Source: an uncultured Candidatus Saccharibacteria bacterium
GTDB lineage: Bacteria; Patescibacteriota; Minisyncoccia; Phycocordibacterales; CAIZLB01
Length of the DNA stretch: 64,000 nt
Assembly (NCBI GenBank): GCA_964368945.1
Contig: CAYJDM010000002.1
Coordinates: 85,386 to 149,385 of the forward strand
Reading direction: 5' to 3'
Shown here: positions 7,766 through 63,596 of the stretch, piece after piece
How the letters are laid out: each line of letters opens with the position of its first letter
How positions within the stretch are numbered: position 1 is the first letter of the stretch
Position numbers and translations under genes: made by a program
Notes under the pieces: generated by a model
Told to the model about the DNA's origin: nothing
The model's database searches: none
What the model saw: only the letters and a program-made list of their open reading frames with translations

Positions 7766-7769
7766 AAAA

Positions 7770-18569: not shown

Positions 18570-20069
18570 ATGAATGGAAAATTCATGAGGGTGTTTTTTG
18601 TATCGATCGGCCTTGTCGGGACATATGCATTTAGACTGCATCAATTCCCAAAAGACGATGAAGTGCTGAGCCGTCTCGAAATATCGCCGGCTCCAGCATA
18701 CCGTGCTCGCATCGTCGATGAGCCGGATTCATCGATGTATGGCATTCGTGCCCGCGCCAAGATTGTGGCAGCATGCGATCATGTCGATGTCGCTGAATCA
18801 TGCGCGAAGATCGAGTCTGGTACTTTCGTTCAGATCTCATATTCGGAAAAGGCACTAGACCAGAAAGTGGAAGCGGGCGATCAGGTCTGGCTCACCGGAT
18901 CAGTCAAAAGGATGTCATTTCCGGAAGGCGAAGAATCGCTCGAGAATTTTTTCAAAAAACAAAAGATATTCTATGAGATCAAAAGCGCAAAAATCAGCCA
19001 TATCGAAAAACCTCCTTCGCTTAAAAGGCAACTCATTCGATTCAGGAAATCAATCGAAAAATCAATTGCAGATGCCTTGCCTCGACCCGATTCAGATTTG
19101 GCACAAGGCCTCGTCGTATCAGGAAAGGGAAGCATGTCAAAAGAACTGCTTGAAAAGTTCAAGCGAGTCGGATTGATCCATATCGTCGTATTATCAGGAT
19201 CCAACGTGTCTATCATAGCGGCCGCATTGATGTCTGCCTTGAGATTTTTGCCGCGCTTCATCGGTGGCGTAATTGGCCTGTTCGGGATGTCATTGTTTGC
19301 GTTGATGACGGGTGCGGCACCACCCGTTGTCAGATCAGTTCTGATGTCATCAATTCCGCTGGTTATTCCACTTTTCTATTTGCCGCGTCGTGGCTCAATC
19401 GATATCATCGTCGACTCAGGCGACCCTGATACTGTGAATAATAATCCTGCTGCAAAACGCGCGCAATTGACAGGCATTCAACTTCTGTGTCTTACCGGAT
19501 ATGTCATGTGTCTTTTTAATCCGCTCTACCTTCTGTACGATATTTCATTCCAGCTCAGCTTTATGGCAACGCTCGGACTTGTCCTATATACCGAGCCGAT
19601 CGCCAAGCGTTTGGCTTTTATTCCTGCCCGTTTCGGCTTGCGTGAGATCATAGCATCATCGCTTGGCACGCAGATTTTGGTCATGCCGCTTCTTTTGGAA
19701 ATAGGCGGAAGCATGTCGACTGTATTTCTTTTTGCCAATATCCTGGTGCTTCCATTGCTCCCTTTTGCCATGTTGTGCATATTCCTTACCTCGTTGTCGA
19801 GTTTCATTTTGCCCGCAGCTACGCATATCACCGGGCTTGTTTCATGGATTTTTATGGAATGGATATTGAGGGTAACGGATCTATTCTCTGGCTTTTCATT
19901 CGCTTCAGTCCATCTGATCGATATGGATAAAAAGGAGGTGCTCGTCTATTACTCAGTAGTTCTCTCGGCTACATGGGTTCTGTTCGCTGTCGCAAAGAGG
20001 CGGCGACTTAGGTTGGAGCTTCGTGCGGAATCGGTGCGAAACATAAGAACGAACAATGCCCCGGGCTAG
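18570..20069 (+). CDS. comEC: ComEC/Rec2 DNA-uptake channel, comprising the N-terminal OB (DUF4131) domain and the competence TM domain. The MBL domain is absent from this ORF.
   Basis: Signature GLIHIVVLSGSNVSIIAAAL (competence domain), plus multiple TM helices. Confidence 0.75.
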   Translation: MNGKFMRVFFVSIGLVGTYAFRLHQFPKDDEVLSRLEISPAPAYRARIVDEPDSSMYGIRARAKIVAACDHVDVAESCAKIESGTFVQISYSEKALDQKVEAGDQVWLTGSVKRMSFPEGEESLENFFKKQKIFYEIKSAKISHIEKPPSLKRQLIRFRKSIEKSIADALPRPDSDLAQGLVVSGKGSMSKELLEKFKRVGLIHIVVLSGSNVSIIAAALMSALRFLPRFIGGVIGLFGMSLFALMTGAAPPVVRSVLMSSIPLVIPLFYLPRRGSIDIIVDSGDPDTVNNNPAAKRAQLTGIQLLCLTGYVMCLFNPLYLLYDISFQLSFMATLGLVLYTEPIAKRLAFIPARFGLREIIASSLGTQILVMPLLLEIGGSMSTVFLFANILVLPLLPFAMLCIFLTSLSSFILPAATHITGLVSWIFMEWILRVTDLFSGFSFASVHLIDMDKKEVLVYYSVVLSATWVLFAVAKRRRLRLELRAESVRNIRTNNAPG

Positions 20070-27700: not shown

Positions 27701-27964
27701 CCGGACCAGGCTCTCGAGAATTGTCCGGCATATTGGGATACCGAATTGCCCGATGCATCGCTTAAGTTCAGCACGGTCTGCAAGATAAATGGCGGAGCTA
27801 CCGTTCCGGGAAAGAATCTTCTTCCAGGCGGAGCAGCCACATTCCTGCAGCCGGTAGGCAGACTTCATAGCCTGACATGCGCCATCTCCGACCTTGAAGG
27901 AGTTGCCAAGACCCTCACATCCGTAGCTCGATGCTATAGAATAGGCGAGCAGGTTGAGGATTAG
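24734..27964 (+). CDS. Large (1076 aa) cell-surface protein with a signal peptide, two central TM helices and a PKD-like domain.
   Basis: N-terminal signal peptide. TM pair around aa 460-500 (IIKIVLGIIAALAIVFILILAF / AVMMLLLAFGWTAF). PKD-like segment SVSTDPDGDQIRYAVDFDSNG. Confidence 0.6.
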   Translation: MSKFIISTLVALLGIIQAFVPASAFAAAKTIEEIGLTPNDVKNLTKDQIQGLLDSATVTYVDGKEPAADAATPLLPNTVNCFDNYSFGSVQANLVPSVSSAVSGSQITFSGNIVNGNAYPVVNGTLVVKIFKAAGNGQKNIDADDVVDEFNAVTNVNLPANGTLPVSVDWKIPAFLDSGSYKAVTFFVVAGKFNLLGLTFTDDIVGNTADFSVTGETGAVRFDKSTVNMNGGKFYFAAYPPRIADDQVKITATLVNTTSVEQTVPVAWQAYSWDAQHESNFIESDIQTVRVPANGKVETSHTVSDKANSVYYVRAVAESNGVKSIIGTRFVRPDANKLRINFPSIAKFPLVKGEKTDIFSCLHATNDMAGPADGKLVLTLKDKVGKVIHSYEYKGPVTSSMMGVKDSFVPDADYDELTLKAELYQGEALVDNVELTYDCKVIDPAACADNGMIIKIVLGIIAALAIVFILILAFKRKPKVTATSAVMMLLLAFGWTAFTSNTSAQNWWESAVLPGEARWEGTAPRMSTSWGGQRSELENVHIKVRYRTQIAKESGEALLGGETLTPGTKVKLKVLPYESNDIYWFGLGGVYDSPFGEWRAGSTPPAAGCQDKDYTSLGISGIPTVTSVYHRYMFFDLVMSPPTASIAETQNLDCGALVGGVATCSVVAEGPVKASFKFTPTTGKFYYSYFNRKPFEGLANPKPLSQVSAADRAACLAQTEEFGGYTVSVPEITKPYTFVADADPENQPPTVPVVTGTGWAKPGQSYSFSSVSTDPDGDQIRYAVDFDSNGITDTSLPGSGYVSSGAAMSTSKSWAALGTYTIKVKAEDTPGGLSSGWATHQVIVSEEDPFNGVTPPTNNPIDGKCVPGSDGCRTSCGDVAPIERGRTLTISTPGLCSADAVAMSPGTTLTGFTWKCQGAWQTVPQNCNVACETGIYSPIAGACADSVADYCPNLDGDQTDASKYDIVKDPATGVNRCMPKASIKYFKFSPDQALENCPAYWDTELPDASLKFSTVCKINGGATVPGKNLLPGGAATFLQPVGRLHSLTCAISDLEGVAKTLTSVARCYRIGEQVED

Positions 27965-39877: not shown

Positions 39878-41995
39878 ATGAAAACCACAACCTCCCAAAT
39901 CCGGGCGGCACTTATCGTGCTGGCCCTATTCTTCGGCTTCTCCCTCACTTCGTGCAAAACACCGAGTGGGCGTCAAGCTTCCGCCGCATCCCCTCAAAAG
40001 GCTGTGGCAACATCCCGTGCAACCGCACGCGATACACGCACTGCTTCCGCCCCGAAAGCCTCCAAAAAGGCCGACAGGGCGATCGCATCGACGACAAAGC
40101 CCATCGCAACGAATAAGTCCCCAATGACGGCCACGGCTCAAAACCAGCGGCCTCCGAAGGCAAAATTCATTGCCGGTCCCGATGATGAATACACGGTAAC
40201 GAAAACTGTCGCAAGACAGGTCAGCGCACCGCGCACACATCCTCAGGCTCCGCCTCTGACCCGAAACGATCCGAATCTATTCCCTGATACCAGCCATGGA
40301 AACATGGTTCCGGATGAGAGAATCCAGGTCGGCGGCGATTGGCAAGGCGGCATGTCCATTGAACTCGCAAGGGCGCTGGGCAAAATCCCATCCGGTCCAT
40401 CAGCTTCAGATATGCCCGACAGGGCAATGCGATCATCGCAAGATGTTCGTCCGCCAGTCGGCGATAATATGCTCGCGCCTCCAAGGTTCACCAAAGAGGA
40501 AGTCGAAAACATCGTTGAAAGCAAATCTGAGAAAAAGCCTGAAAAGAAGGCCGAAAAGACAATCGCAAAGGCAAAGATCGAAATCAAAGCGGCGGCTAAA
40601 ACCGCGGCTCCTTCCGAGCCTGAGAAAGTCGCAAGTCCGACTCCGAAGGAAACTCAGATCGCTTCGGCTCCCGTAGCAAAAGCGCCCGACCCACCGCCGA
40701 TACCGATACCGGCACCCGTGGCTGCAAAACCGCCTGAGATACCAGTGGCTCCGCCACCGCCTCCGGCCGTAGCGGCCATTCCAGAAATTCCCAAGAAAAC
40801 CCCGATCGTAGCGATCGTTCCAGAACCATCTCCCAAACCTCCGGTCGTAGCGACTGTATCAGAATCACAACCCAAAACCCCGGTCGTAGCGACCGTCCCA
40901 GAACCAGCCAAAACGACCCCGGTCGTAGCGGCCAACCCAGATTACGAACCGCAGATGAAGGCTTTTCTCCAAAAGGAGGCCAAATATCTGCGTCTCGCGA
41001 AAGGAGACGGCTTCAATGAGGCGTATATCGTCAGGGCATCCATTCTCACAAAGAAAATGCCCAAATCGGTACAAGGTTCCCAAAACGTCGGGACGCTGCA
41101 TTGCAGCGTCCAGCATTACGGCGAAGGCTTGCCTCTCGGCATAAGGATTTTTCAGGAAAAGCCAGGCACTAAACCCGGCAGTTTCATAACTGAAGGCGTA
41201 AGGCTCATTCCGAGCAATTCGCCCTTTGCGGAAATTCCAGCAGAATTCGAGCGTCCCGCGACTCATTTTGCATACGACATCATCGTCGATGCATCTGATT
41301 CTACCGAGACGTACATTGTCGAAATCGCTTTGGCCAAGGTTGCTCAAAGCATGCGACTCTACCTCCAGCAGGACGGGCAGGATATCGAGGCGCTGAAGAA
41401 GGATTTGAAAGGTGGAATTGCGAAAAACATCATGATTCCCATGCCTGGTCTCGACTGGCAGCCCAAGCCCGAAGTCGTCAAATCGGCGGCTTTACTAAAG
41501 GATGAAACGGCGGCAGCGTTGTTTCCCCCAGAGGTGTTTGCAGACAAAGCCGTGCCGGAACCGGACGGCGATAAGCCAAAGGTGACCGATTCGGCCAGCG
41601 GAGGCAGTCCATTCTGGAATTCCACGAATTCGCCTATATATCAGGTTGCCACAGTCGTTCTCTTTGGGGTAGGATCCTTCCTATTCTTCAAGGGGATTGC
41701 CATGTTCAGGCGTCCCCGGAAGCCGAAAGGACCTGCCGTGCTCGTTGAGAAAATGGAAGCGAAATCCGGCCAGCCTGCCAAGAGTTTGAATTCATGCTTT
41801 AAGGTGGTTGTCCCTAAGCCAATGGGCGCTGCTACTCTGCCCAAGCGCCATGATCCAGGCCTCGGGGTCAGAAAAATGTACACAAGCGATCGTGAAAAGG
41901 ATCAAGAGCCCAGAAGGAAAGGCTTTCCATTCCGAAGCCGCCAGACTCCTGAGTCTAAAGACAGGGCGGAGGATACGGAACCTGTCGTTTCTTAG
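39878..41995 (+). CDS. Proline-rich lipoprotein (705 aa) with a C-terminal TM anchor.
   Basis: Lipobox LTSC after the signal peptide. PxxP/PEIP/PVVATV repeats. C-terminal helix VATVVLFGVGSFLFF followed by RRPRKPK. Confidence 0.55.
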   Translation: MKTTTSQIRAALIVLALFFGFSLTSCKTPSGRQASAASPQKAVATSRATARDTRTASAPKASKKADRAIASTTKPIATNKSPMTATAQNQRPPKAKFIAGPDDEYTVTKTVARQVSAPRTHPQAPPLTRNDPNLFPDTSHGNMVPDERIQVGGDWQGGMSIELARALGKIPSGPSASDMPDRAMRSSQDVRPPVGDNMLAPPRFTKEEVENIVESKSEKKPEKKAEKTIAKAKIEIKAAAKTAAPSEPEKVASPTPKETQIASAPVAKAPDPPPIPIPAPVAAKPPEIPVAPPPPPAVAAIPEIPKKTPIVAIVPEPSPKPPVVATVSESQPKTPVVATVPEPAKTTPVVAANPDYEPQMKAFLQKEAKYLRLAKGDGFNEAYIVRASILTKKMPKSVQGSQNVGTLHCSVQHYGEGLPLGIRIFQEKPGTKPGSFITEGVRLIPSNSPFAEIPAEFERPATHFAYDIIVDASDSTETYIVEIALAKVAQSMRLYLQQDGQDIEALKKDLKGGIAKNIMIPMPGLDWQPKPEVVKSAALLKDETAAALFPPEVFADKAVPEPDGDKPKVTDSASGGSPFWNSTNSPIYQVATVVLFGVGSFLFFKGIAMFRRPRKPKGPAVLVEKMEAKSGQPAKSLNSCFKVVVPKPMGAATLPKRHDPGLGVRKMYTSDREKDQEPRRKGFPFRSRQTPESKDRAEDTEPVVS

Positions 41996-51285: not shown

Positions 51286-51942
51286 ATGAAAAACAATAAA
51301 ATGAAAATGTCTCTACGCATAGGAGCATTGGTTCTCGCCGGAGTGCTCATCGGGGTAACCGCAAGCGCTCGAGCCGCGTGGACTAATCCTACGGCAACCC
51401 CTCCATCAGGAAATGCCGATGCGCCTTTGAATACTGGCTCGACTGCTCAGGGCAGGATGGGTGCGCTTTCAATTGGAAAAACATCGCCCACTTCAGGCAT
51501 CGCCCTCGATGTCGTAGGCAATGCCGCGGTCAATACGGGCGGGCTCGCGATCGGAACCTCTTCTACTTCAGGTGTCGCTCTCAACGTGAACGGATCTTCC
51601 GTCATAAATTCCATCGGAGTATTCAATTTGGTTGTCGCAACGGGCACTCCTGCTGCAGGCAAGGTCCTCACATCAGTCGATGGGGTGGGAACGGCAGGCT
51701 GGCAGACTCCTACCGCATCGATCCCGACTCCTACGTTCTATTCATATACCGGGGATATGCCAGGCTGGAATTCCGCTACGCAGACAATGTGGATCACGAT
51801 TGGAAGCTATTCATATTGCGCGATCAACAATATGGGTTCAGTTAACAACTTCGTAGCCCGAGTCCGAAAGAATGTTTCTACTGGCCTATGGCAGGTACAA
51901 TATGCCGGCATGACAGACGGATTCGGCGTCGCTTGTTTCTAA
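51286..51942 (+). CDS. Hypothetical secreted protein.
   Basis: Signal peptide. Gly/Thr/Ser/Ala-rich beta-type repeats. Confidence 0.45.
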   Translation: MKNNKMKMSLRIGALVLAGVLIGVTASARAAWTNPTATPPSGNADAPLNTGSTAQGRMGALSIGKTSPTSGIALDVVGNAAVNTGGLAIGTSSTSGVALNVNGSSVINSIGVFNLVVATGTPAAGKVLTSVDGVGTAGWQTPTASIPTPTFYSYTGDMPGWNSATQTMWITIGSYSYCAINNMGSVNNFVARVRKNVSTGLWQVQYAGMTDGFGVACF

Positions 51943-51976
51943 GCCCTACTAACCCTAATTTAAAAGGAAGCAATCC

Positions 51977-53257
51977 ATGAAGAATAAAAAAACAAAATCA
52001 TCCCTGCTGTCAGGCCTCATCGTGATGGCTGCTGCGGCCGCTTGCTTCGCCGTTTCGCTTTTTAGCGAGACGCCAAGCGTCGCCAATGCTCAAGGAGCTT
52101 CTGGAAACGTTGCCGGATTCGCTTGGTCTGCCAATACAGGATGGATTTCCTTCAACTGTACTAATACTTCTACATGCGGCACCATCTCATATGGCGTCAA
52201 TGTGGATGTGACTACAGGAAGCACGACTGGCTATGCCTGGTCTTCCAATGTCGGATGGATTTCCTTCAACCCTTCAGATCTTGCGGGTTGCCCAAGCGGA
52301 ACATGTGCCGCAAAGCTCCAGAGCGTAAGCGCGACGAATCAGAAGGGCGATAAGCCTCTCACTGGCTGGGCCAAGGCCGTACTTGGCGGCACCGCCGGAA
52401 CTGCCGGCTGGGATGGCTGGATCAGGCTCGATCATACTCAGAACAATGCGGTCTCATACAATTTCAAGACGCAGCAATTCACAGGATGGGCTTGGGGCTC
52501 TGATGTCATCGGCTGGATAAGCTTCAACTCACAGAACCAGGGAACCTCTCCGATATATGCCGTGACAGGTCCCGCTCCGACGATTCCGATCGACGATGTA
52601 TATGCTCTCGGCGGAATAGCCACGAGCTCGAAATGCGATGCTTCCAATGCCTCATATCTTGAAGTATCGGCTCCCGTAAACGGAAATGTCGGCCCTGATT
52701 TCACATATTCTGGATACTCAGTCACTTCCGCAGGAACGGTAAGCGCTTTGCCGACCGGATCGCTCTATGATGCGAGCAGCAGAATCGTATTCAAGCATTT
52801 CGTCTCTACGACAAGCCCATCATACAGATACGCGATCTATGCGCGAAGGACGAGCACGGGCGAATCCACTTCGACGGCGACATCGACGCTTACGGGCCTC
52901 AAATCGACTTTCACTTGCGATACGAATATGCCAGTCGATCCAGCCTCATTCAAATTCACTTCAAAGTCCTTCATTCTCAATCCCGATACGGTAAATGTAG
53001 GCGATCAATGCGTGGCATTCATGAGCTTTACCCATGACGGGGTGATTGATTCACAGGTAAGCGTAAATTGTACGCTGACAAGCCCTCCGGCAGCTCCTAT
53101 TGATCTGGGCTATCAGCTTACGAGCACCAGAAATGTAAATCCTGGCCTCCATACATATTCATGCACATTGGCAAGCTCGACGAATCCATCGACGATATAC
53201 AATACCTTCTCGATCTCTCGACGATGCTATAAGTCGACAGACGTAAAGGAGATCTAG
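51977..53257 (+). CDS. Hypothetical secreted protein with three G-[FYW]-AWS-x-N-x-GWISFN repeats.
   Basis: Signal peptide. Repeats: GFAWSANTGWISFNC, GYAWSSNVGWISFNP, GWAWGSDVIGWISFNS. Confidence 0.5.
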   Translation: MKNKKTKSSLLSGLIVMAAAAACFAVSLFSETPSVANAQGASGNVAGFAWSANTGWISFNCTNTSTCGTISYGVNVDVTTGSTTGYAWSSNVGWISFNPSDLAGCPSGTCAAKLQSVSATNQKGDKPLTGWAKAVLGGTAGTAGWDGWIRLDHTQNNAVSYNFKTQQFTGWAWGSDVIGWISFNSQNQGTSPIYAVTGPAPTIPIDDVYALGGIATSSKCDASNASYLEVSAPVNGNVGPDFTYSGYSVTSAGTVSALPTGSLYDASSRIVFKHFVSTTSPSYRYAIYARRTSTGESTSTATSTLTGLKSTFTCDTNMPVDPASFKFTSKSFILNPDTVNVGDQCVAFMSFTHDGVIDSQVSVNCTLTSPPAAPIDLGYQLTSTRNVNPGLHTYSCTLASSTNPSTIYNTFSISRRCYKSTDVKEI

Positions 53258-53376: not shown

Positions 53377-54183
53377 ATGGCCAGCAGTCTCAAGCTCAAG
53401 ACCCCAGAAGAAATAGCGATCCTCAGAGAAGGGGGTCGGCGTCTCGCCTTGATCCTCAAGGAACTCGAATCCATGGTAAAGCCAGGGGTTTCTTCTGCGG
53501 ATTTGGAAATGCGCGCTCGGGAGCTCTGCGCTCAGCATGAGGGCAAGCCGGCATTCATGGGGTATACGCCACGAGGCGCGGACCGGCCTTTTCCCGCAGC
53601 GCTCTGCCTGACAGTAAACAATGGCGTCGTCCATGGAATTCCTCATGAGAATCCGTATACGATCAATGAGGGCGATCTGGTGACCTTGGATATGGGCTTG
53701 ATCTATAAGGATATGATTACGGATTCAGCGATTACTGTCGCATGTGGAGATACGCTTGATAAAAAAGCCCGCGCCCTCCTCGAAGCCGGACAGAAATGCC
53801 TCGAAGCTGGAATCTTTGCTGCTCGAGCAGGAGCAAAGACAGGCGATATAGGTCATGCCATTGCAGAGGCCTTGGAATTTTATACAAAAACATATGGCTT
53901 CCATTTCGCAGAAGGACTAGGCGGACATGGAGTAGGATATTCCGTGCATGAGGATCCTTTCGTGCCGAACTTCTCTAGGCCGAATCAGGGCGTGGTGCTC
54001 GAGCCAGGACTCGTCATCGCCATAGAGCCTATAGTCAATGAAAAAGGCGAAGGCATAGTCCTCGAAGACGATGGCTATACGATCACCACCGAAGACGGCG
54101 GCAGAAGCGTTCACTTCGAGCATACCGTGGTAATTACGGCAAATGGAGACGACAGAGGCGCGGATATTTTGACCCAGGCTTAG
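53377..54183 (+). CDS. map: Methionine aminopeptidase, type I.
   Basis: Pita-bread fold. Metal ligands D, D, H, E, E are conserved (HGIPHE..., GHGVGYSVHE). Start at the ATG after the terminator and promoter. Confidence 0.85.
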   Translation: MASSLKLKTPEEIAILREGGRRLALILKELESMVKPGVSSADLEMRARELCAQHEGKPAFMGYTPRGADRPFPAALCLTVNNGVVHGIPHENPYTINEGDLVTLDMGLIYKDMITDSAITVACGDTLDKKARALLEAGQKCLEAGIFAARAGAKTGDIGHAIAEALEFYTKTYGFHFAEGLGGHGVGYSVHEDPFVPNFSRPNQGVVLEPGLVIAIEPIVNEKGEGIVLEDDGYTITTEDGGRSVHFEHTVVITANGDDRGADILTQA

Positions 54184-54189
54184 CCGACT

Positions 54190-55015
54190 AATCAAACAGG
54201 CCATCCATCAGGATTACATGGCGGAAAACGGGAAATAAAAAACCCGCCGCTGTATTCAGGGGCAGGGTGTATGAGCGCGTATGCTCGTGCATTGCATGGA
54301 AGGTTCCAGGCGGATGAAGGGATACGGCCCTCCATCCGCCCGTCTGCGTGCCGGCTTTCGCCGACCGCACGTTTGGTTCCTGGCGACGGCGTTATGGCTG
54401 TTTGAGCCTGCACCGCACCGGTATCCTCCTTTGGCTCCCATGACGAGAGCGTCGTCATGTCTGGCAAGTGCAGACCCTAATGGCATAAGTGCTATGCCGG
54501 GCCTGGAGCCATCCGCATGAGAGGACATGTATATAATAGCATATATAGGACATCCTGTCAAGTATATGTAGAAAATAAAAAAGCCGCTCCGATCGATTGT
54601 CGGATGCGGTCAATTTGGCGTCTGAGCGACGCGGTGGAACGTGCAAAAGGGTCTGAGCAAGGATCTATATGGTGAGGCGGACAGCGCTGCGAGAACTGGC
54701 GGAAAAGCCAGCCTCGCAGCGCCCGGTGCCCCGGCCCGACGGGCCTGTTGCTGACTGCGACACCGCCTCTCGCGTCCGCATGCATATCTCGGTGGCCATT
54801 CGGCGGTATTTGCGCATTCGGCTGCGCTTCACCGTCTGCCTTCTTGCGGACTCATTAAGTTTTGCATATCTGATATATAAGTCAATCTGCGAATATTCTA
54901 GAGACGATCGCCTGCTGGCGCGAATTTTGCATCCAGAATTTTACCACACTTGCTCGTTTCGTCCTCCGCAGCATGGGTATGGAGATAAAATCGGAAGCGA
55001 GGACCGGACAAACGA
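54190..55015 (+). ncRNA. Candidate large structured noncoding RNA, or degenerate region. About 830 bp, GC-rich and ORF-free. Family unknown.
   Basis: No ORF with a coding signature on either strand. GC is well above coding neighbours. Multiple strong local hairpins: GGCGGATG/CATCCGCC, CATGACGA-gagcg-TCGTCATG, GGCATA/TATGCC, GCCGCATCCGA-type. Confidence 0.3.
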
Positions 55016-55120
55016 ATGGGCGCGGAATTGCATTTCAGATATCTTGTCACATGTCTTCTGTTCAGCCTTCGCAGGAGGCACCATGTAATACAGGAAAATT
55101 TATTCGAACGACGAGGACAG

Positions 55121-58100
55121 ATGAAGGGGGAACATGTGATAAGATATTTACTAATGGAACACGAACTCGCTCCTTCGCATTCATATGAAGGAAAACAATT
55201 TCGCAATGCCGAAGAGGAATTGGCGTATTTGCGGCAAGTGATTGTCGAGAAGGAGGCGCGCATCGCAGCCGATACAGAGCGACGCGCTCAGGAATATCAA
55301 AAGCTCGGCATAAATCCGGCGGAGACCATCGACGGCGCGCCGATGACAGCAGAAGGCCGCGAAAAAATGATTGCTGCAGAAGTGGCGCACTATACGAAGC
55401 AGGATGCTGATCGCGTTTTGCATGAGCATTTCGCCATGCCTGCCGAGCATGCAAAGGACGCCGCTGCCGCGATGAATGCAGAACTAGGGCAAGCCATCAA
55501 TCAGGAAATCACTCTCGAGCTTTCTCCTGATGCCGATGATAAGCGCATCGAGGCTCTCATACCGCGCATGTATAGCGAGGGCATTCTCAATACCATTCAG
55601 GTCGTGCGCAATATGAACGACCCTCACCTTGAGGATGATTTTCATCGTTTCCTCACCCAGTATGTGAAGCAGGGTCTGCCGACGCCCGGCCTCAAGGAGA
55701 CAATGCCGGAAGCGAAGGCTTTGCATAAGACCCTCTATGAGGTTTCGCTCCCCGAAGCTGATGCTGAGAAAGAAGGCCAGAAGCGCACGCTCAAGGAAAT
55801 CATCTCGTCGATGGAACAGTTCTATTCAGGCATGCTTTCTGTGGATGATCAATTCGCGATAGAGCTCGCTGTCTCGGAGGGGAGCGAGGAATTCGTCTTT
55901 TATGTTTCGGTGCCGGATGCGACGAAATCGCTTTTTGAGAAGCAGTTCTTGGGGATTTTTCCAGATGCGAAGGTGATGGAGAAAAAAGACGATTACAATA
56001 TCTATAACCCGGACGGCGTATCAATGGCATCGGAGGCGCAGTATGCGCGCAATGCGATTTATCCTATAAAAAACTATGCGGAATTCGATTTCGATCCGCT
56101 CAATGTCGTGCTCAATACGTTTTCTCAGATACGACGCGATGGGGAAGGCGCCGCGATCCAGATCGTCCTCAACCCAAAGAGCATCCATGGCCGCGATTAC
56201 TATACGAAGGAATATAAGCAGGCTCTCGATGAGATCCAGAAGGGAACCAAGGTCAAAGATGCCATCGATATTCGGCATACGCTCCTCGGCAAATTCGGCA
56301 AGGCAGTAGGCGAGATTGGCAAAGGGGTAGCCGAAGAGTTTTCTCCATTGAAAAAATCAGACGAGCAGAAAGCCAAAGAAAAGGAAAAAAAGATCGAGCA
56401 GGGCAAAACGGTCGACCAGATCGCCGTCGATCAGATCACATCAAAGATCTCCTCGCCAATCGTCGAGGTCAATGTGCGCCTCGTTGCATCCGCGCCGAAT
56501 CGAGAGAGGGCAGAGCGCATCCTCTCGGAGCTCGAATCGTCTTTCAATCAATTCGATAATTCACTGGGCAATGCCATCAAGTTCGGCCGGCCGAAAAGCG
56601 TAGGCGATATTCGCGGCTTGCTCCATAAGTTCACATTCCGCCTCTTTGATGAAGGCTCTGCTTTGCCCATGTCGATTCGCGAGCTCAATACCATGATGCA
56701 TTTCCCTGGCGATAGCATCACTGCCCAGCCTCAGCTCAAGCAGAATAAGGCCAATACTGCGCCTGTTCCTATGGGCTTGCCAGAAGGAGGCCTCTATCTC
56801 GGCACGAACAATCATAGAAATCTGCGCACGAAGGTGTATACGACGCCGGAAGACCGCCTCCGCCACTTCTATGTAATCGGACAGACCGGTACTGGAAAGT
56901 CGACCATGCTTCGAAATATGATCATCCAGGATATTCAGGCTGGAAACGGAGTCTGCTTCATCGATCCGCATGGTTCGGATGTCCAGGATATTTTGGCCCA
57001 TATTCCCAAGGAGCGCTTCGATGATGTCATTTATTTCGATCCGAGCTATACGGAGCGGCCGATGGCTTTGAATATGCTCGAATATAATCGCGCATATCCT
57101 GAGCAGAAGACATTCGTGGTGAATGAGCTTTTCTCTATTTTCCAAAAACTATATGGCGGGGTGCCGGAATCCATGGGTCCGATGTTCGAGCAGTATTTCC
57201 GAAATGCCACGATGCTCGTCATCGAGGATCCGGATAGCGGCTGCACATTGCTCGATGTATCGCGCGTGATGTCAGACAAGAAATTCCGAGATCTCAAGAT
57301 CGCGAATTGCAAGAATCCTATTGTCGTTCAGTTCTGGCGAGAGATTGCCGAGAAGGCAGGCGGGGAAGGGGCATTGGCCAATATGGTTCCGTATATCACC
57401 AGCAAATTCGACGTATTCCTCGCGAACGATATCATGCGGCCCATCATCGCGCAGGAGAAGTCCAGCTTCAATTTCCGCGAGATCATGGATGGCAAGAAGA
57501 TCCTGCTCGTGAATCTGGCGAAGGGTCGCTTGGGCGATATCAACTCGTCTTTGATCGGTCTCATTCTCGTGGGCAAAATCCTCATGGCCGCCCTTTCACG
57601 AGTGGACTCTTTCGGCACGAATATGAATCCTTTTTATCTCTATATCGACGAATTCCAAAACATCACCACGCCATCGATCGCAACGATTCTCTCTGAAGCC
57701 CGCAAATACAAGCTCTCGCTCACCATGGCGCATCAGTTCATCGCTCAGCTAGACGACAGCATCAAGGATGCCGTATTCGGAAATGTCGGCTCTATGGCCG
57801 TCTTCCGCGTCGGTGCCGAGGATGCCGAAGTTCTCCAGAAGCAATTCGAGCCTGTCTTCAAGGCCAATGACATCATGAATATCGACAATATGAATTGCTA
57901 TATCAAGATGCTTTCGCATGGCAAGCCTGTGCGGCCTTTCAATATCGAATTCACTTGGCCGGATCATGGCAACGAGGCGATCGTGCCGAGCCTCAAGGAA
58001 TTGTCTTATCTCAAATATGGCAAAGATCGCGCCATCGTCGATGCGGCCATCATACTCAAATACAAGAAGAGCGAGCCTCTGGTGCCTCCGACACCGGTGA

Positions 58101-58180
58101 GGCCTGCCGTGCCTCAAGCGCCAGCGCCGACGCCTCCTCCTGCGGTGCCTACAACAGCCGATATGACGCCAAAAGCCTAA
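55121..58180 (+). CDS. FtsK/HerA/VirD4-superfamily P-loop ATPase (type IV coupling-protein-like), with an N-terminal soluble domain of about 600 aa and a Pro-rich C-terminus.
   Basis: Walker A VIGQTGTGKST. Walker B LYIDEFQN. Arg/Gln motif ARKYKLSLTMAHQFIAQL. No TM helix. Tail PLVPPTPVRPAVPQAPAPTPPP. Start chosen at MKGEH after a GAGGA. Confidence 0.6.
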   Translation: MKGEHVIRYLLMEHELAPSHSYEGKQFRNAEEELAYLRQVIVEKEARIAADTERRAQEYQKLGINPAETIDGAPMTAEGREKMIAAEVAHYTKQDADRVLHEHFAMPAEHAKDAAAAMNAELGQAINQEITLELSPDADDKRIEALIPRMYSEGILNTIQVVRNMNDPHLEDDFHRFLTQYVKQGLPTPGLKETMPEAKALHKTLYEVSLPEADAEKEGQKRTLKEIISSMEQFYSGMLSVDDQFAIELAVSEGSEEFVFYVSVPDATKSLFEKQFLGIFPDAKVMEKKDDYNIYNPDGVSMASEAQYARNAIYPIKNYAEFDFDPLNVVLNTFSQIRRDGEGAAIQIVLNPKSIHGRDYYTKEYKQALDEIQKGTKVKDAIDIRHTLLGKFGKAVGEIGKGVAEEFSPLKKSDEQKAKEKEKKIEQGKTVDQIAVDQITSKISSPIVEVNVRLVASAPNRERAERILSELESSFNQFDNSLGNAIKFGRPKSVGDIRGLLHKFTFRLFDEGSALPMSIRELNTMMHFPGDSITAQPQLKQNKANTAPVPMGLPEGGLYLGTNNHRNLRTKVYTTPEDRLRHFYVIGQTGTGKSTMLRNMIIQDIQAGNGVCFIDPHGSDVQDILAHIPKERFDDVIYFDPSYTERPMALNMLEYNRAYPEQKTFVVNELFSIFQKLYGGVPESMGPMFEQYFRNATMLVIEDPDSGCTLLDVSRVMSDKKFRDLKIANCKNPIVVQFWREIAEKAGGEGALANMVPYITSKFDVFLANDIMRPIIAQEKSSFNFREIMDGKKILLVNLAKGRLGDINSSLIGLILVGKILMAALSRVDSFGTNMNPFYLYIDEFQNITTPSIATILSEARKYKLSLTMAHQFIAQLDDSIKDAVFGNVGSMAVFRVGAEDAEVLQKQFEPVFKANDIMNIDNMNCYIKMLSHGKPVRPFNIEFTWPDHGNEAIVPSLKELSYLKYGKDRAIVDAAIILKYKKSEPLVPPTPVRPAVPQAPAPTPPPAVPTTADMTPKA

Positions 58181-58263
58181 TCCAGGCCTCCGCATCGCCG
58201 CCACATCATCCCGCTCTGCTCATCTTGGGCGGGTGGGATTTTGATATATACTTAAGGCCATCT

Positions 58264-60705
58264 ATGAACCGAGACATATCGTCGCTTACTGACATCGAAT
58301 CCGGCCTATCCTCGGCATATGCGCATGCCCATCGCCCCAAGAAGCGCAGGAAAGCCGATAGCGATGCCTACGAGGCCTATAGGGTGCTGGTAAATCAGAT
58401 GCGGTCCATATTCTTCGTATTGCTGCTTGTTTCGGCCGTGCTCTCTTTTTATCTAGGAAATCATACGGATGCATATATCTTCATAATCCTGAACGCGCTC
58501 AATGTGCTCGTAGGATTCGTGCAGGAGTTCAAGGCTTCTAAAGCGAGCAAGACCTTGGCCAAAATGATCAAGCATAGGGTGACCGTCATTCGCGATGGCA
58601 AGAAAGCGCAGATCGATCATGATGATGTGGTCGCGGGCGATATCGTCTTTCCCGTGCATGGCAATGTGCTCGTGGCGGATCTGTATGTGCGAGAAAGCAT
58701 CGACGCTTTCGTTGACGAATCATTGCTCACGGGCGAAAGCCTGCCGCGCTCGATTGCAGCGGGCGATACCGCATATGCCGGCACCAGCGTGGTGGGCGGA
58801 CGATTCATAGGGCAGGTCATAGCGGCGGGGGAGGAAAGCTCGCTCATGCAATATGGCAAGGCGCTCCGCAATATCCAGAAGGACAATGACTTTGCGCGCT
58901 TCGTAAAGAAAGTCAGCGCCTATATCCTTTTCATTACCCTCGCTTGTCTCGTCCTGATCGCGATATATGCCGTATTCGTCGAGGGCAAATATACATCGAC
59001 TGCATTCATCCTGTTCGCCATCTCGATGCTCATAGGAGTGGTGCCCGAGTCGTTGTCCCTGATCATCACATTGATGCTGACGCGAGAGGCAATCATCCTT
59101 TCTCGCGAAGGAGTTATCGTAAAAAGCCTGCCGGCGCTCCAGCAGCTCGGCTCGATCAGATATCTTTTGACCGACAAGACGGGCACGATTACGGAAAATG
59201 CCATCCGCCTCGTCGATACATTCGATCTCAAAGGGTTGAAGTCGGTGATATCGCTCGTATCGACTGCGGAATATGAGCGCACTCCGATGGATCAGGCATT
59301 CGATGATGCTCTTCGCGATAAGGTGACGAGCGAGATTTCTGCCGATACCGCCGTCTATGATTTGATGCCCAAAAAACCGATCGTCACGCCATTCACGAAT
59401 AATGCCGGATATGCCTCATTTGATTTCGGCACTTCCATAGTTCGACGCGGACAGTTTTATTCAATATTGAATAGCTCGATAGGACTGAGCGAAACCGAAA
59501 AGAATAAGCTCGAAACCCTCTATATCGAATATGAATCAAAAGGATTGCGCATCCTGGCATTCGGCAGCGCGCCTGTCTATGTCGATCCAACGGGCCGCCG
59601 CAAGAATGGCGAAGACGAGCTGCTATTCTCATTCAGCGGCTTCGCCGTATTCGAGGATCCTCTCAAGGCTGATGCAGCGGATTCATTCAAGGAAGCGGAA
59701 GGGCTCGGAATCAATGTCAAAATTCTGACCGGAGATTCCGTTCTCGTTTCCAAATATGTGGCCAAGAAGCTCGATCCGAATCTCACAGATGATGCGGTAG
59801 AGGAATTGGGCAAGGGCGTCGATATGCCCGCATACGCTGAAAGCGAAATCGAGGAGAATCGCGTTTATGCGCGCTGCATGCCGGAGCAGAAACTCGAATT
59901 GATCAATCGGCATATCCCTTATGGCGCAGTCGGATTCCTGGGAGAGGGAATCAATGATGCCCTTGCATTGAAGCGCGCGGATGTTGGCATCGTAGTTACC
60001 AATGCCAGCGATGTCGGCCGCCAGTCCGCCGATATTCTTTTGACAGAAAAAAGCCTCAATCCCATAATCAAAGCCATCCAGCTGAGCCGTCATGCCTATG
60101 CGCATATCTCCACATATCTGCTCTGTACGCTTACGGGAAATGTCGGAACCTTGATCTCGATCACGCTGGTCGCCATGTTCTGGACCGATCTGCCTATGCT
60201 GCCAATTCAGATCCTGCTCAATAATCTCCTCACGGATGTGCCGCTCATTTTCCTGATTACTGATCGCTTGGCGAAAGAGCAATATGATAAGCCTATCGAG
60301 AATATCGCCAGCGACTTCTTCAAGACGATTTTCGTATTCGGCTTCATCAGCTCGGTCTTCGATATCATTTATTTCTATATGTTCAAAGATCTGCCGCTCG
60401 AAGTGCTCCGAACGGGCTGGTTCATCTTTAGCGTGACATGCGAGCTTGCTCTCGTTTTCTCTCTGCGCACGAAGCTATCTATGTTCAAGGGACCAAGGAT
60501 GTCAAAGCCTCTCACAGCCGCTATCGCGCTCTCTGGACTCGCGGCATTCCTCTTCATGTATGTTCCCGGATTGAATGCCAAGCTCGCTCTGGTGCCTATC
60601 GATGGCCCTCATATCGCTACGATACTCGGCCTGACCGTCGTCTATATGATAGCCAATGAGATCTATAAATTCGCCAAGAGACGGGGAAGGCAAGCAAGGG
60701 CTTAA
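58264..60705 (+). CDS. P-type cation-transporting ATPase.
   Basis: TGES (LTGESLP), DKTGTIT phosphorylation site, TGD (ILTGDS) and GEGINDALALKRADVGI (GDGxND). TM4 carries PESL. Confidence 0.8.
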   Translation: MNRDISSLTDIESGLSSAYAHAHRPKKRRKADSDAYEAYRVLVNQMRSIFFVLLLVSAVLSFYLGNHTDAYIFIILNALNVLVGFVQEFKASKASKTLAKMIKHRVTVIRDGKKAQIDHDDVVAGDIVFPVHGNVLVADLYVRESIDAFVDESLLTGESLPRSIAAGDTAYAGTSVVGGRFIGQVIAAGEESSLMQYGKALRNIQKDNDFARFVKKVSAYILFITLACLVLIAIYAVFVEGKYTSTAFILFAISMLIGVVPESLSLIITLMLTREAIILSREGVIVKSLPALQQLGSIRYLLTDKTGTITENAIRLVDTFDLKGLKSVISLVSTAEYERTPMDQAFDDALRDKVTSEISADTAVYDLMPKKPIVTPFTNNAGYASFDFGTSIVRRGQFYSILNSSIGLSETEKNKLETLYIEYESKGLRILAFGSAPVYVDPTGRRKNGEDELLFSFSGFAVFEDPLKADAADSFKEAEGLGINVKILTGDSVLVSKYVAKKLDPNLTDDAVEELGKGVDMPAYAESEIEENRVYARCMPEQKLELINRHIPYGAVGFLGEGINDALALKRADVGIVVTNASDVGRQSADILLTEKSLNPIIKAIQLSRHAYAHISTYLLCTLTGNVGTLISITLVAMFWTDLPMLPIQILLNNLLTDVPLIFLITDRLAKEQYDKPIENIASDFFKTIFVFGFISSVFDIIYFYMFKDLPLEVLRTGWFIFSVTCELALVFSLRTKLSMFKGPRMSKPLTAAIALSGLAAFLFMYVPGLNAKLALVPIDGPHIATILGLTVVYMIANEIYKFAKRRGRQARA

Positions 60706-60761: not shown

Positions 60762-61361
60762 ATGAATAAGCACCATAAATTCGAACGGACGCTGGTCATC
60801 ATCAAGCCTGATGGCATTCAGCGGTCTTTGATAGGAGAAATCATCAATCGCTATGAGCGAATCGGCCTCAAGCTCGTAGGAATCAAGATGATGATACCTA
60901 CTCGCGAAATGGTAGAAAAGCACTATACCCTCGATCCGGAATGGAAGCGGCTCGTTGGCGAAAAGCGCCTCAAGGCGGCCCCAGATGGCCATCTCGATGG
61001 AGAAAATGATCCTGTCAAAATCGGCGAAGCGGTCCTGGCCGTTCTCGCCAACTATCTCACTGCCGGTCCCGTCATCGCCATGGTCTGGCAGGGCGCCCAT
61101 GCCGTCTCTGTCGTCCGCAAGGTGACCGGAGGCACTGAGCCTCGCATGAGCGATATCGGCACGATTCGCGGTGATTTCATGCTCGACTCATATGAGATGT
61201 CCGAAGTCGATTCTCGCGCCGTTCGCAATCTCGTTCATGCCTCTGGCTCGGTCAAGGAGGCGGAGGATGAGATCGCGCATTGGTTCGATGGTGCCGAGCT
61301 TTTCGATTATCGAATCGTTCAAGAGCAGATCTTGTACGAGAAGGATATGGGGATTTTGTAA
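60762..61361 (+). CDS. ndk: Nucleoside diphosphate kinase (long form with insertion).
   Basis: ERTLVIIKPDGIQR. Active-site region NLVHASGSVKEAEDEIAHWF (NxxHGSDS...E.EI..WF pattern). Confidence 0.8.
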   Translation: MNKHHKFERTLVIIKPDGIQRSLIGEIINRYERIGLKLVGIKMMIPTREMVEKHYTLDPEWKRLVGEKRLKAAPDGHLDGENDPVKIGEAVLAVLANYLTAGPVIAMVWQGAHAVSVVRKVTGGTEPRMSDIGTIRGDFMLDSYEMSEVDSRAVRNLVHASGSVKEAEDEIAHWFDGAELFDYRIVQEQILYEKDMGIL

Positions 61362-63179: not shown

Positions 63180-63188
63180 ATGGTATCC

Positions 63189-63596
63189 ATGATCACCTTC
63201 AAGAATATGGGAACCGAATCAATACGAAAGCCGATATATCTCGGGGTGGTGATTGTCACTATCGTTATCGCCCTGCATGCGGGCGCCAGCTATTTCGGCT
63301 GGTATTGGATATTCCGCTGGTTCGATATACCGATGCATATCCTCGGCGGCGTATTCGCCGGATATGTGGGCATGGTTGTCTATATGTTCCGCACTGGCCG
63401 CAAGAATCCGTCATTGTGGGTTCCTCTGCTCTCGGCGCTCGTCATAGGCATAGCATGGGAATTTCTCGAGAATGCCTATGGAGTGTCGGGACTCAATGCG
63501 GTGTATCGATTCGATACCATCAAGGATATCGTGGACGATATGATGGGAGGAGTCATCTCGCTGGCACTCTGGGATTTTTTCATCTATAAAAAATAA
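63189..63596 (+). CDS. Small integral membrane protein (hypothetical, about 135 aa, 4 TM helices).
   Basis: Hydrophobic helices: VVIVTIVIALHAG, MHILGGVFAGYVGMVVYMF, LWVPLLSALVIGIAW, GGVISLALWDFFIY. Confidence 0.5.
   Translation: MITFKNMGTESIRKPIYLGVVIVTIVIALHAGASYFGWYWIFRWFDIPMHILGGVFAGYVGMVVYMFRTGRKNPSLWVPLLSALVIGIAWEFLENAYGVSGLNAVYRFDTIKDIVDDMMGGVISLALWDFFIYKK

What the first reader, a model, noticed from the sequence alone, without database searches (positions are those of the whole stretch)
55121..60705. Soluble VirD4/TraD/HerA-superfamily ATPase with a 600-aa N-terminal domain, immediately followed by a P-type cation ATPase
The 1019-aa protein has FtsK/HerA/T4CP-type Walker A (VIGQTGTGKST), Walker B (YIDEFQN) and the R/Q sensor (ARKYKLSLTMAHQFIAQL). 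It lacks the N-terminal TM helices of conjugative coupling proteins. It carries a large uncharacterised N-terminal domain and a Pro-rich C-terminal tail. It sits in the position where infA-rpmJ-rpsM-rpsK-rpoA would normally follow map, and is coupled 84 nt downstream to a P-type ATPase. The partner machinery, if any, is not in the window. Such orphan T4CP-like ATPases are candidates for DNA or protein translocation at the host interface in episymbionts.
Basis: partly seen in the sequence, partly recalled or inferred. Interest (0 to 1): 0.55.

Follow-up and report, generated by a model that had tools for sequence, protein, structure and literature searches.

The report
Soluble coupling-protein-like ATPase, Paceibacteria core gene
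The gene is real and encodes a membrane-anchor-less relative of the ATP-driven "coupling" motors of bacterial conjugation; it is a conserved core gene of one large group of ultra-small bacteria, its function is untested, and its adjacency to an ion pump is a local accident.

Summary
The ORF, its ATPase motifs, the missing N-terminal TM helices, the Pro-rich tail and the downstream P-type ATPase are all present. Two small corrections apply. The conserved start is 55154 (1008 aa), not 55121. The P-type ATPase starts at 58264.

The protein belongs to a large, catalogued but uncharacterised family: N-terminal Pfam DUF8128 plus a VirD4/TraD-type (T4CP) ATPase. At least 585 species genomes carry it. 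All that are informatively named are Paceibacteria/Parcubacteria.

It is vertically inherited and usually sits in secY-adk-map-[X]-ndk. Its ATPase domain is more conserved than SecY (median 75% vs 60%). No T4SS gene lies within about 8-10 kb in any of the related genomic loci recovered.

The P-type ATPase pairing occurs in only 3 of 50 informative loci, all close relatives, so functional coupling is rejected.

New here: the predicted N-domain structure matches only VirB4 (TrwK) in the PDB. This holds at fold level only; sequence profiles do not confirm it. A soluble remote homologue occupies the coupling-protein slot of a Bacillus conjugation module.

Best reading (confidence about 0.45): a peripheral, hexameric T4CP-type translocation motor that docks on a membrane machine encoded elsewhere. 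Moderately interesting; a variant of a known kind.

The parts
55154..58180 (+). CDS of the DUF8128 + T4CP-type ATPase (1008 aa from the conserved start; an in-frame ATG at 55121 would give 1019 aa)
   Evidence: ORF. More than 2249 homologues, the top 120 at 58-89% identity, all carrying PF26449. Start codon supported by invariant M12 and by the L001 comparison.
55135..55148 (+). Conserved upstream motif TGTGATAAGATATT, 6-19 nt before the ATG. Possibly an extended -10 promoter giving a leaderless or short-leader mRNA (inference).
   Evidence: The nucleotide block is conserved in L001 and partly in L085, while the rest of the upstream gap is not.
55154..55507 (+). Variable, helical N-terminal extension (aa 12-129). 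Absent from the roughly 790-860 aa subfamily.
   Evidence: Low conservation and occupancy. Helices in the model. Shorter representatives match the profile only from position about 65 onward.
55508..56716 (+). DUF8128 domain (aa about 130-532): alpha/beta domain with a VirB4-N-terminal-domain-like predicted fold
   Evidence: PF26449 in the precomputed Pfam annotation of all homologues. AF2 model with pLDDT 80 and pTM 0.76. The top 14 Foldseek PDB hits are all TrwK/VirB4.
56783..57970 (+). T4CP-type P-loop ATPase domain (aa about 555-950)
   Evidence: Pfam and NCBIfam hits. TrwB alignment. 70-94% identity across relatives.
56879..56905 (+). Walker A, GQTGTGKST
57632..57661 (+). Walker B, FYLYIDEFQN
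57698..57751 (+). ARKYK...AHQ motif. It aligns with GRKAG...GLQS of TrwB. A role as Arg finger or sensor is inferred, not tested.
58073..58177 (+). Pro-rich, poorly conserved C-terminal tail
58264..60705 (+). P-type cation ATPase (813 aa), a lineage-specific insertion between the ATPase gene and ndk. Not part of the system.
   Evidence: Present in 3 of 50 loci.
53377..54183 (+). map (methionine aminopeptidase), the conserved upstream neighbour
60762..61361 (+). ndk, the conserved downstream neighbour in relatives

Best explanation
The gene encodes a soluble ring-forming translocation ATPase of the VirD4/TraD (type IV coupling protein) branch of the FtsK-HerA superfamily.

Instead of the usual N-terminal membrane anchor it carries a roughly 400-aa alpha/beta domain (DUF8128). 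The predicted fold of that domain resembles the N-terminal domain of VirB4, which in solved T4SS structures docks the ATPase onto VirB3/VirB8 at the cytoplasmic face of the membrane.

In Paceibacteria the gene is a vertically inherited, constitutively placed core gene at the tail of the ribosomal-protein/secY-adk-map cluster.

The most likely mechanism:
- It is recruited peripherally to a membrane channel encoded elsewhere. The best candidate is the relaxase-less, monoderm-type T4SS that most Patescibacteria carry near dnaA.
- It uses ATP hydrolysis to feed a polymer substrate (DNA or protein) through that channel.

Shown: family assignment, motifs, solubility, conservation, synteny, and lack of linkage to the P-type ATPase.
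Inferred: hexamer formation, membrane docking through the N-domain, the identity of the partner, and the substrate.

The neighbouring P-type ATPase is an unrelated insertion.
For: Sequence family:
- Pfam T4SS-DNA_transf, TraG-D_C, TrwB_AAD_bind and DUF87 are above gathering score.
- The best NCBIfam partial matches are SXT_TraD, the CD1115 VirD4-like family and TOL TraD.
- TrwB is the best PDB sequence match, with Walker A, Walker B and the RK...Q motif aligned.

Solubility: no TM segment in aa 1-580.

Fold:
- N-domain model pLDDT 80, pTM 0.76.
- All 14 best PDB matches are TrwK/VirB4 (E 2e-5 to 8e-3, probability at least 0.96).
- The full-length model aligns collinearly with TrwK over 860-970 columns (E 7e-8). 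Its ATPase part then aligns with TrwB at 16-17% identity.

A remote homologue in a real conjugation module:
- It is an 886-aa protein without TM helices.
- It aligns over aa 223-936 of the 1008-aa protein that starts at 55154.
- It occupies the coupling-protein slot of a Bacillus subtilis plasmid: DUF87 protein, Replic_Relax, TcpE/VirB3-like, AAA_10 VirB4-like, a large 'conjugal transfer protein'.

Precedent: pIP501 TraJ is proposed to be held at the membrane by the small protein TraI (PMC12857230).

Housekeeping status:
- At least 585 species genomes carry it.
- map lies upstream in 41 of 60 loci and ndk downstream in 32 of 50.
- Its divergence tracks that of SecY, Map and Ndk (rho 0.5-0.7), and GC3 equals that of its neighbours.
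- The ATPase domain is more conserved than SecY in 33 of 34 loci.

Literature:
- Patescibacteria carry 5,713 T4CP homologues in 2,918 genomes, almost never next to virB4.
- T4CP genes are often encoded away from virB4 (PMC12102498).
Against: - No T4SS component lies within about 8-10 kb of the gene in any of the related genomic loci recovered, including loci where the map/ndk context is replaced.
- Conjugative T4CPs are usually fast-evolving, whereas this ATPase domain is about 75% identical across the class.
- The VirB4-like reading of the N-domain rests on fold comparison alone, with low TM-scores (0.32-0.39).
- hhalign against a ConE-type VirB4 N-domain alignment was not significant (probability about 1%). 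A profile search of PDB sequences found nothing.
- The ATPase half of the full-length model is unreliable (pLDDT below 50 for most of aa 644-900).
- The one T4CP homologue that PMC12102498 discusses in S. epibionticum is dispensable, while the T4SS is essential.
- Co-occurrence with virB4 in the same genomes was not testable here.
Confidence: 0.45

Rival explanations
1. Exapted stand-alone DNA motor. A coupling-protein-derived ATPase no longer works with a T4SS and instead acts on the cell's own DNA (segregation, partition, repair, or handling of imported DNA) as a housekeeping enzyme.
For: - No T4SS neighbour in any locus.
- The ATPase domain is more conserved than SecY, as expected for a motor with an invariant substrate such as DNA.
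- It sits repeatedly inside translation or housekeeping operons: the spc tail, the str operon in L079, next to rplS in L023.
- Phage and phage-plasmid homologues sit beside ParA/partition genes rather than transfer genes.
- 264 of 327 plasmids with homologues are typed non-mobilizable.
- PMC12102498 itself raises exaptation.
Against: - Patescibacteria also carry FtsK/TcpA-type (t4cp2) homologues, so the classical segregation motor is not obviously missing.
- There is no DNA-binding domain, no FtsK gamma domain, and no NurA or Par partner next to the gene.
- A VirB4-like docking domain is hard to explain for a free cytoplasmic motor.
Confidence: 0.27
2. A divergent VirB4-type assembly ATPase (not a substrate receptor) that powers assembly of a pilus or channel, for example of VirB2-like pilins.
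For: - Collinear structural match of the whole protein to TrwK/VirB4, better than to TrwB.
- The N-domain matches only VirB4.
- VirB4 proteins are likewise peripheral, without TM helices (established knowledge of the family).
Against: - Sequence families favour VirD4/TraD over VirB4. TIGR00929 scores 19 bits against a cut-off of 643, and there are no AAA_10, P-loop_TraG or CagE_TrbE_VirB hits.
- Patescibacteria already have a distinct canonical VirB4 clade, encoded with VirB3, VirB6 and VirB8.
- No VirB3-like gene is adjacent.
Confidence: 0.12
3. One reading: a functional two-gene unit of the ATPase with the downstream P-type cation ATPase.
For: The 83-nt spacing holds only a weak terminator-like hairpin (58219-58237). 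The pair recurs in L001, L085 and L008.
Against: - The pair is present in only 3 of 50 loci, all close relatives.
- L006, which is about as close, and all more distant relatives have ndk directly downstream.
- No known mechanism links the two families.
Confidence: 0.03
4. A remnant of a recently integrated conjugative element or prophage.
For: Remote homologues are common on plasmids and phages.
Against: - GC and GC3 are the same as in neighbouring genes.
- The chromosomal position is conserved across the class, and divergence is correlated with SecY, Map and Ndk.
- No integrase, relaxase or repeats flank the gene.
- No close relative was found in IMG/VR.
Confidence: 0.03

Closest known systems
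TrwB / VirD4 / TraD type IV coupling proteins (R388 TrwB, PDB 1E9R/1GKI)
   Same: - Walker A, Walker B and the RK...Q motif align.
- Pfam T4SS-DNA_transf, TraG-D_C and TrwB_AAD_bind are above threshold.
- A long helical insertion lies between Walker A and Walker B.
- TrwB is the best PDB sequence match and the second-best structural family.
   Different: - No N-terminal TM anchor.
- An additional roughly 550-aa N-terminal region.
- Not linked to a relaxase or T4SS genes.
- Chromosomal, vertically inherited, and far more conserved than plasmid T4CPs.
pIP501 TraJ, a Gram-positive T4CP proposed to be anchored to the membrane by TraI
   Same: A T4CP that relies on another protein for membrane attachment. 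It belongs to the monoderm T4SS world, to which the patescibacterial T4SS is related (PMC12857230; PMC12102498).
   Different: TraJ is plasmid-borne within a tra operon. Whether it has a DUF8128-like N-domain was not tested here.
VirB4 / TrwK (R388, PDB 7O42, 7O43, 8RTD)
   Same: A two-domain, TM-less architecture. The N-domain model matches only this protein in the PDB, and the full-length model aligns collinearly with it.
   Different: No sequence-level match of the N-domain. VirB4 sequence models are far below cut-off. No VirB3 neighbour.
WP_121549396.1, the 'DUF87 domain-containing protein' of B. subtilis plasmid NZ_CP032854 and similar Bacillus plasmids
   Same: Same two-domain layout, aligning over aa 223-936 of the 1008-aa protein at 22% identity. 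No TM helices.
   Different: It sits in the coupling-protein slot of a conjugation-type module, next to Replic_Relax, TcpE-like and AAA_10 VirB4-like genes. The window gene has no such neighbours.
PHROG 5156 / Bacillus phage G gp156, SPO1-like phage 'VirD4-like' proteins, phage D6E ORF23
   Same: Profile match E 1.8e-78 over aa 219-934 of the 1008-aa protein. Best structural neighbours of the N-domain among viral models.
   Different: These are phage genes of unknown function, 21-23% identical, some next to partition genes.
Southlakia epibionticum SEML1_0142 (essential) and SEML1_0293 (dispensable) T4CP-like proteins
   Same: Both are Patescibacteria-enriched core families with a 360-380-aa N-terminal region followed by a P-loop domain. 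They carry the same kinds of database names as this family.
   Different: They come from a different class (Saccharimonadia). Which of the two, if either, is the orthologue could not be determined, because no sequences were available.

Membership tests
VirD4/TraD/TrwB type IV coupling protein (T4CP) | P-loop NBD with Walker A, Walker B and the conserved RK...Q segment, matching T4CP sequence models | tested here: met
   PF02534 31.4 bits (GA 20.1), PF12696 26.3 (GA 22), PF10412 24.8 (GA 20.5). TrwB alignment. The full-length NCBIfam equivalog and subfamily T4CP models are all far below cut-off, for example TIGR03743 at 45 bits against 366.
VirD4/TraD/TrwB type IV coupling protein (T4CP) | N-terminal transmembrane anchor (two TM helices in canonical members) | tested here: not met
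   Maximum 19-residue hydropathy in aa 1-580 is 0.85. Some Gram-positive T4CPs also depend on a separate anchor protein.
VirD4/TraD/TrwB type IV coupling protein (T4CP) | All-alpha domain inserted in the NBD | tested here: inconclusive
   About 240 residues, predicted helical, lie between Walker A and Walker B, but the model confidence there is below 50. The PF10412 match covers only the Walker A region.
VirD4/TraD/TrwB type IV coupling protein (T4CP) | Genetic linkage to a relaxase and/or mating-pair-formation genes | tested here: not met
   None in the window or in the related genomic loci recovered. T4CP genes can be unlinked. The rest of the genome was not available.
VirB4 | N-terminal domain plus C-terminal ATPase, with no TM helices | tested here: met
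   Fold level only. The top 14 (N-domain) and top 13 (full-length) PDB matches are TrwK, with E down to 7e-8 and TM-scores of only 0.17-0.39.
VirB4 | Match to VirB4 sequence models (TIGR00929, AAA_10, P-loop_TraG, CagE_TrbE_VirB) | tested here: not met
   TIGR00929 scores 19.2 bits against 643.1 and no Pfam VirB4 family is hit. hhalign against a ConE-like N-domain gave probability about 1%.
VirB4 | Adjacent VirB3-like gene and other T4SS genes | tested here: not met
FtsK/SpoIIIE | FtsK_SpoIIIE motor domain above threshold, N-terminal TM domain, gamma (KOPS-reading) domain | tested here: not met
   PF01580 scores 17.2 bits, below GA 24, and matches the Walker A region only. No TM helices and no gamma-domain hit.
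HerA | HerA central ATPase domain with N-terminal HAS barrel, usually with a NurA partner | tested here: inconclusive
   DUF87 scores 25.7 bits (GA 23.2) but covers only aa 572-654. HerA structures rank below VirB4, TrwB and TcpA. No NurA neighbour.
Pfam PF26449 (DUF8128) + TraG-D_C family of Patescibacteria | DUF8128 N-domain followed by a T4CP-type ATPase, 790-1030 aa | tested here: met
   The window protein is 58-89% identical to 120 listed proteins, all carrying PF26449 in the precomputed annotation. The local Pfam copy lacks PF26449, so the domain was not scored directly on the window protein.
P-type ATPase (the downstream gene) | DKTGT phosphorylation site, TGES, hinge GxGxND, E1-E2/HAD/C-terminal domains | tested here: met
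   No subfamily model reaches its cut-off (the best are the Mg type IIIB and H+ type IIIA models), so ion specificity is undetermined.

The most novel reading that the evidence does not exclude
The DUF8128 ATPase is the missing motor of the relaxase-less patescibacterial T4SS, or of another envelope channel. It would work as a housekeeping importer or exporter of DNA or other polymers at the host interface, analogous to the T4SS-derived DNA-import systems of archaea (Ced/Ted) and Helicobacter (ComB). It could be orthologous to the essential S. epibionticum gene SEML1_0142. That would explain why a conjugation-type motor is fixed in a ribosomal-protein operon and is more conserved than SecY.
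Probability: 0.15. Interest if true: 0.75.

Novelty: new variant of a known kind. Interest (0 to 1): 0.4.

Why it matters
Patescibacteria depend on hosts, and in the one genetically tractable species an unusual T4SS is essential. No coupling protein or relaxase has been recognised within that species' T4SS gene cluster.

A T4CP-type motor that is universal in Paceibacteria, vertically inherited, under stronger constraint than SecY and equipped with a VirB4-like docking domain is a concrete candidate for the energising component of that or another envelope machine. Alternatively, it is an example of a conjugation motor domesticated for a core cellular task.

Either outcome would be useful. At present it is a well-conserved protein of unknown function in an already catalogued family, not a surprise in itself.

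Tried and rejected
- Pairing with the P-type ATPase: tested across the related loci and rejected (3 of 50).
- Recent mobile-element origin: rejected on GC3, synteny and correlated divergence. There were no IMG/VR relatives.
- Search for partners in alternative contexts: loci lacking map/ndk had neighbours such as L19, lipase-like, CrtC, bPH and unknown proteins, never T4SS genes.
- Sequence-level confirmation of the VirB4-like N-domain: hhalign of A1, and of a broadened 63-sequence alignment, against a ConE-type VirB4 N-domain was not significant. A profile search of PDB sequences was also negative. The VirB4 N-domain search gave only 12 homologues.
- Full-length AF2 model: the ATPase half is unreliable, probably because the alignment is too shallow and too similar.
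- Literature: 'DUF8128' returns no paper. The searches pairing FtsK with CPR or Parcubacteria were uninformative.
- Orthology to S. epibionticum SEML1_0142 or SEML1_0293: could not be resolved, because no sequences were available. The family's accessions were absent from the stored part of Table S3 of PMC12102498.
- The 970-nt gap upstream of the gene: no Rfam match even at E<=1, no similarity to relatives, and two metagenome pattern scans found nothing related.

Full report
**Observation**

The ORF is real. A single open frame runs 55016-58180 (+). The quoted Walker A, Walker B and ARKYK...AHQ segments are at aa 587-595, 838-847 and 860-877. They align with the corresponding TrwB segments.

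Four Pfam families of the conjugative-ATPase world pass their gathering scores: T4SS-DNA_transf, TraG-D_C, TrwB_AAD_bind and DUF87. The best NCBIfam partial matches are TraD/VirD4-like models, but none comes near its full-length cut-off.

No hydrophobic segment exists in the first 580 residues. The only one, aa 807-825, lies inside the ATPase core. The C-terminal 35 residues are 37% proline and not conserved.

The downstream gene, 58264-60705, is a bona fide P-type ATPase with TGES, DKTGT and GEGIND motifs and E1-E2, HAD and C-terminal domains. Its ion specificity is undetermined. It lies 83 nt downstream.

One correction concerns the start codon. The invariant methionine in 34 homologues is M12. 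In the 81%-identical relative L001, the ATG equivalent to 55121 is out of frame. The start is therefore most likely 55154, giving 1008 aa. A conserved TGTGATAAGATATT block 6-19 nt upstream may be an extended -10 element (inference).

**What family it is**

The protein is not an orphan. A word-indexed search found more than 2249 homologues. The best 120 are 58-89% identical and 912-1033 aa long. All carry Pfam PF26449 (DUF8128) in front of the T4CP-type domains. Where named, they are called 'TraM recognition domain-containing protein' or 'type IV secretory system conjugative DNA transfer family protein' from Patescibacteria/Paceibacteria.

Their informative titles are Paceibacterota, Parcubacteria, Nomurabacteria, Taylorbacteria and Campbellbacteria. 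Many records carry generic labels such as 'uncultured Candidatus Saccharibacteria bacterium'. I read those as pipeline labels, because the loci share the same synteny and 50-78% SecY identity with the window.

An exhaustive profile search with the N-domain found 2003, 964 and 310 representatives (50% identity clusters) at E <= 1e-3, 1e-10 and 1e-30. The full-length ones fall into two size classes:
- about 900-1000 aa;
- about 790-860 aa, lacking the first helical segment.

Named members of the shorter class include Wolfebacteria and Minisyncoccia proteins, one of which UniProt labels 'DUF8128 domain-containing protein'. No paper in the searchable library mentions DUF8128.

**N-terminal domain**

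An AF2 model of aa 125-575, built from 29 sequences, is confident (mean pLDDT 80, pTM 0.76). Against the PDB, the 14 best matches are all chains of TrwK/VirB4 of plasmid R388 (E 2e-5 to 8e-3). Nothing else falls below E 0.04.

The full-length model aligns collinearly with TrwK over 860-970 columns (E 7e-8). Only after that does it align with TrwB, over about 425 columns at 16-17% identity, followed by TcpA, HerA and DotL.

So the overall layout, a TM-less N-domain followed by a motor domain, is VirB4-like. The motor sequence itself is closest to VirD4/TraD.

Caveats:
- TM-scores are low (0.17-0.39).
- The ATPase half of the full-length model is unreliable (pLDDT below 50 for most of aa 644-900).
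- Sequence-profile tests do not confirm homology of the N-domain to VirB4.

Among viral models, the N-domain's best neighbours are Bacillus phage G gp156 and gp155 and related phage proteins.

**Conservation and context**

In L001, L002, L003 and L085 the order is secY ... adk, map, [this gene], (P-type ATPase), ndk, DUF2238, beta-CASP nuclease, methyltransferase.

Across the related loci:
- map lies upstream on the same strand in 41 of 60 loci with enough sequence;
- ndk lies downstream in 32 of 50;
- a P-type ATPase is adjacent in only 3 of 50 (L001, L085, L008).

Where the context differs, the gene sits in other housekeeping surroundings, for example between rpsG and fusA in L079 or before rplS in L023. 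It is never next to T4SS genes.

The identity of the ATPase domain to the window protein has a median of 74.7%, against 59.6% for SecY, 50.8% for Map and 62.2% for Ndk. It exceeds SecY in 33 of 34 loci. Divergence of both domains correlates with that of SecY, Map and Ndk (Spearman 0.49-0.68, against 0.73 for SecY versus Map). GC3 (0.62) equals that of its neighbours. This is the signature of an old, vertically inherited, strongly constrained gene, not of a mobile element.

**The P-type ATPase**

The P-type ATPase is an insertion between the ATPase gene and ndk. It is confined to the window's close relatives. L006, which is about as close, lacks it. Only a weak terminator-like hairpin lies between the two genes. 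The distribution argues against any functional coupling.

**Remote homologues**

PHROG 5156, of unknown function, matches aa 219-934 of the 1008-aa protein that starts at 55154 at E 1.8e-78. tblastn finds 21-23%-identical proteins with the same two-domain layout in Bacillus phage G, SPO1-like phages, phage D6E and related phage-plasmids. Some of these lie next to ParA/partition genes.

Homologues also occur on 327 plasmids of Bacillus, Streptomyces, Staphylococcus, haloarchaea and Sulfolobus.

The most informative case is a 24.7-kb B. subtilis plasmid. Its 886-aa homologue has no TM helices and aligns over aa 223-936 of the 1008-aa protein. It occupies the coupling-protein position of a Gram-positive conjugation-type module, followed by a Replic_Relax protein, a TcpE (VirB3-like) protein, an AAA_10 VirB4-like ATPase and a large 'conjugal transfer protein'. 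This supports 'soluble coupling protein' as the ancestral role of the architecture. It is an inference from gene position.

**Literature**

Quinonero-Coronel et al. 2025 (PMC12102498) report:
- VirB4 in 2,417 of 3,035 Patescibacteria genomes, usually with VirB3, VirB6, VirB8 and TrsD near dnaA, and almost always without a relaxase;
- 5,713 T4CP homologues in 2,918 genomes, only 148 of them near virB4, with the remark that the T4CP may have been exapted.

Their Table S3 shows that these hits are a mix of t4cp1 (VirD4-type) and t4cp2 (TcpA/FtsK-type) profiles.

The 2025 T4SS review notes that pIP501 TraJ is proposed to be anchored by a separate small protein, TraI (PMC12857230).

Wang et al. 2023 (PMC10633639) state that the essential T4SS of S. 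epibionticum lacks a recognisable coupling protein in its cluster. Their Table S1 lists two Patescibacteria-enriched core T4CP-like genes elsewhere in the genome:
[quoted passage not shown] I could not obtain their sequences, so orthology with the window gene is unresolved.

**Mechanism**

The best-supported reading (about 0.45) is a ring-forming T4CP-type translocation ATPase. It would be recruited to the membrane peripherally through its VirB4-like N-domain, and would energise substrate transfer through a machine encoded elsewhere, most plausibly the patescibacterial T4SS.

The main rival (about 0.27) is that it has been exapted as a stand-alone DNA motor. That view is favoured by the complete lack of T4SS linkage, the extreme conservation and the partition-gene contexts of the phage homologues. 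A VirB4-type assembly role is a further possibility (about 0.12). Coupling to the P-type ATPase and a recent mobile-element origin are each given 0.03.

**Verdict**

The gene belongs to an already catalogued but uncharacterised family that differs from canonical coupling proteins in three ways: it has no TM anchor, it has a VirB4-like N-domain, and it is a housekeeping, stand-alone gene. I therefore rate it a new variant of a known kind, with moderate interest (0.4).

Noticed in passing
window 54184-55153, especially 54228-54530 (-) and 54568-54870 (-): A 970-nt gap lies between map and the ATPase gene. It is absent from relatives, where the gap is 60-450 nt, and it has no convincing ORF.

On the minus strand it holds two units of about 300 nt, each ending in a hairpin plus T-run.
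- The first has a near-consensus promoter (TTGACA-17-TATTAT with TG, at 54561-54533). It folds with z = -5.7, against -4.1 for the plus strand.
- The second folds with z = -3.0.

There is no Rfam match at E<=1, and no related sequence in the fetched loci or in two metagenome pattern scans. These may be lineage-specific small RNAs or a decayed insert.
   Followed up: partly
window 39878-41995 (+): A 705-aa ORF inside the ribosomal-protein gene cluster. It has a lipoprotein-like signal (LTSC), a long Pro/Ala/Lys-rich region and a C-terminal TM helix. It has no Pfam match, and local GC is raised (0.545).
   Followed up: partly
window 6011-8972, 15359-17317, 18570-20069: Type IV pilus ATPase PilB (T2SSE) and platform protein PilC (T2SSF), RecJ, and a ComEC-type competence channel lie 35-49 kb upstream of the finding. 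The DNA-uptake hardware is therefore in the same genome segment but is not linked to the ATPase.
   Followed up: partly
window 51286-53257 (+): Two secreted proteins of unknown function (218 and 426 aa, signal peptide, no Pfam) are inserted between adk and map. Similar genes are found at this position only in L001 and L085.
   Followed up: partly
window 1-64000: There are no tRNA or tmRNA genes and no Rfam family at gathering score anywhere in the 64 kb, despite dense housekeeping content.
   Followed up: no
window 63180-63596 (+) and the equivalent genes in L001-L003, L006 and others: A small multi-pass membrane protein (DUF2238) is conserved two genes downstream ([ATPase]-ndk-DUF2238) in at least 19 relatives. 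It was not tested as a possible membrane dock for the soluble ATPase.
   Followed up: no
window 24734-27964 (+) and 10606-12393 (+): Large ORFs (1076 aa with only a weak PKD-like hit, and 595 aa with no hit) of unknown function lie near the pilus and translation genes.
   Followed up: no
PMC10633639 Table S1 (S. epibionticum SEML1_0141-0142): The essential T4CP-like gene SEML1_0142 is preceded by a small essential hypothetical gene (SEML1_0141, 420 bp). This is a possible partner worth checking in Paceibacteria.
   Followed up: no
L016 and L019 (both from Nomurabacteria MAG MsH-01oct19-81): Two different copies of the DUF8128 gene occur on two contigs of one MAG. This means either true paralogues or strain mixture in the bin.
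   Followed up: no
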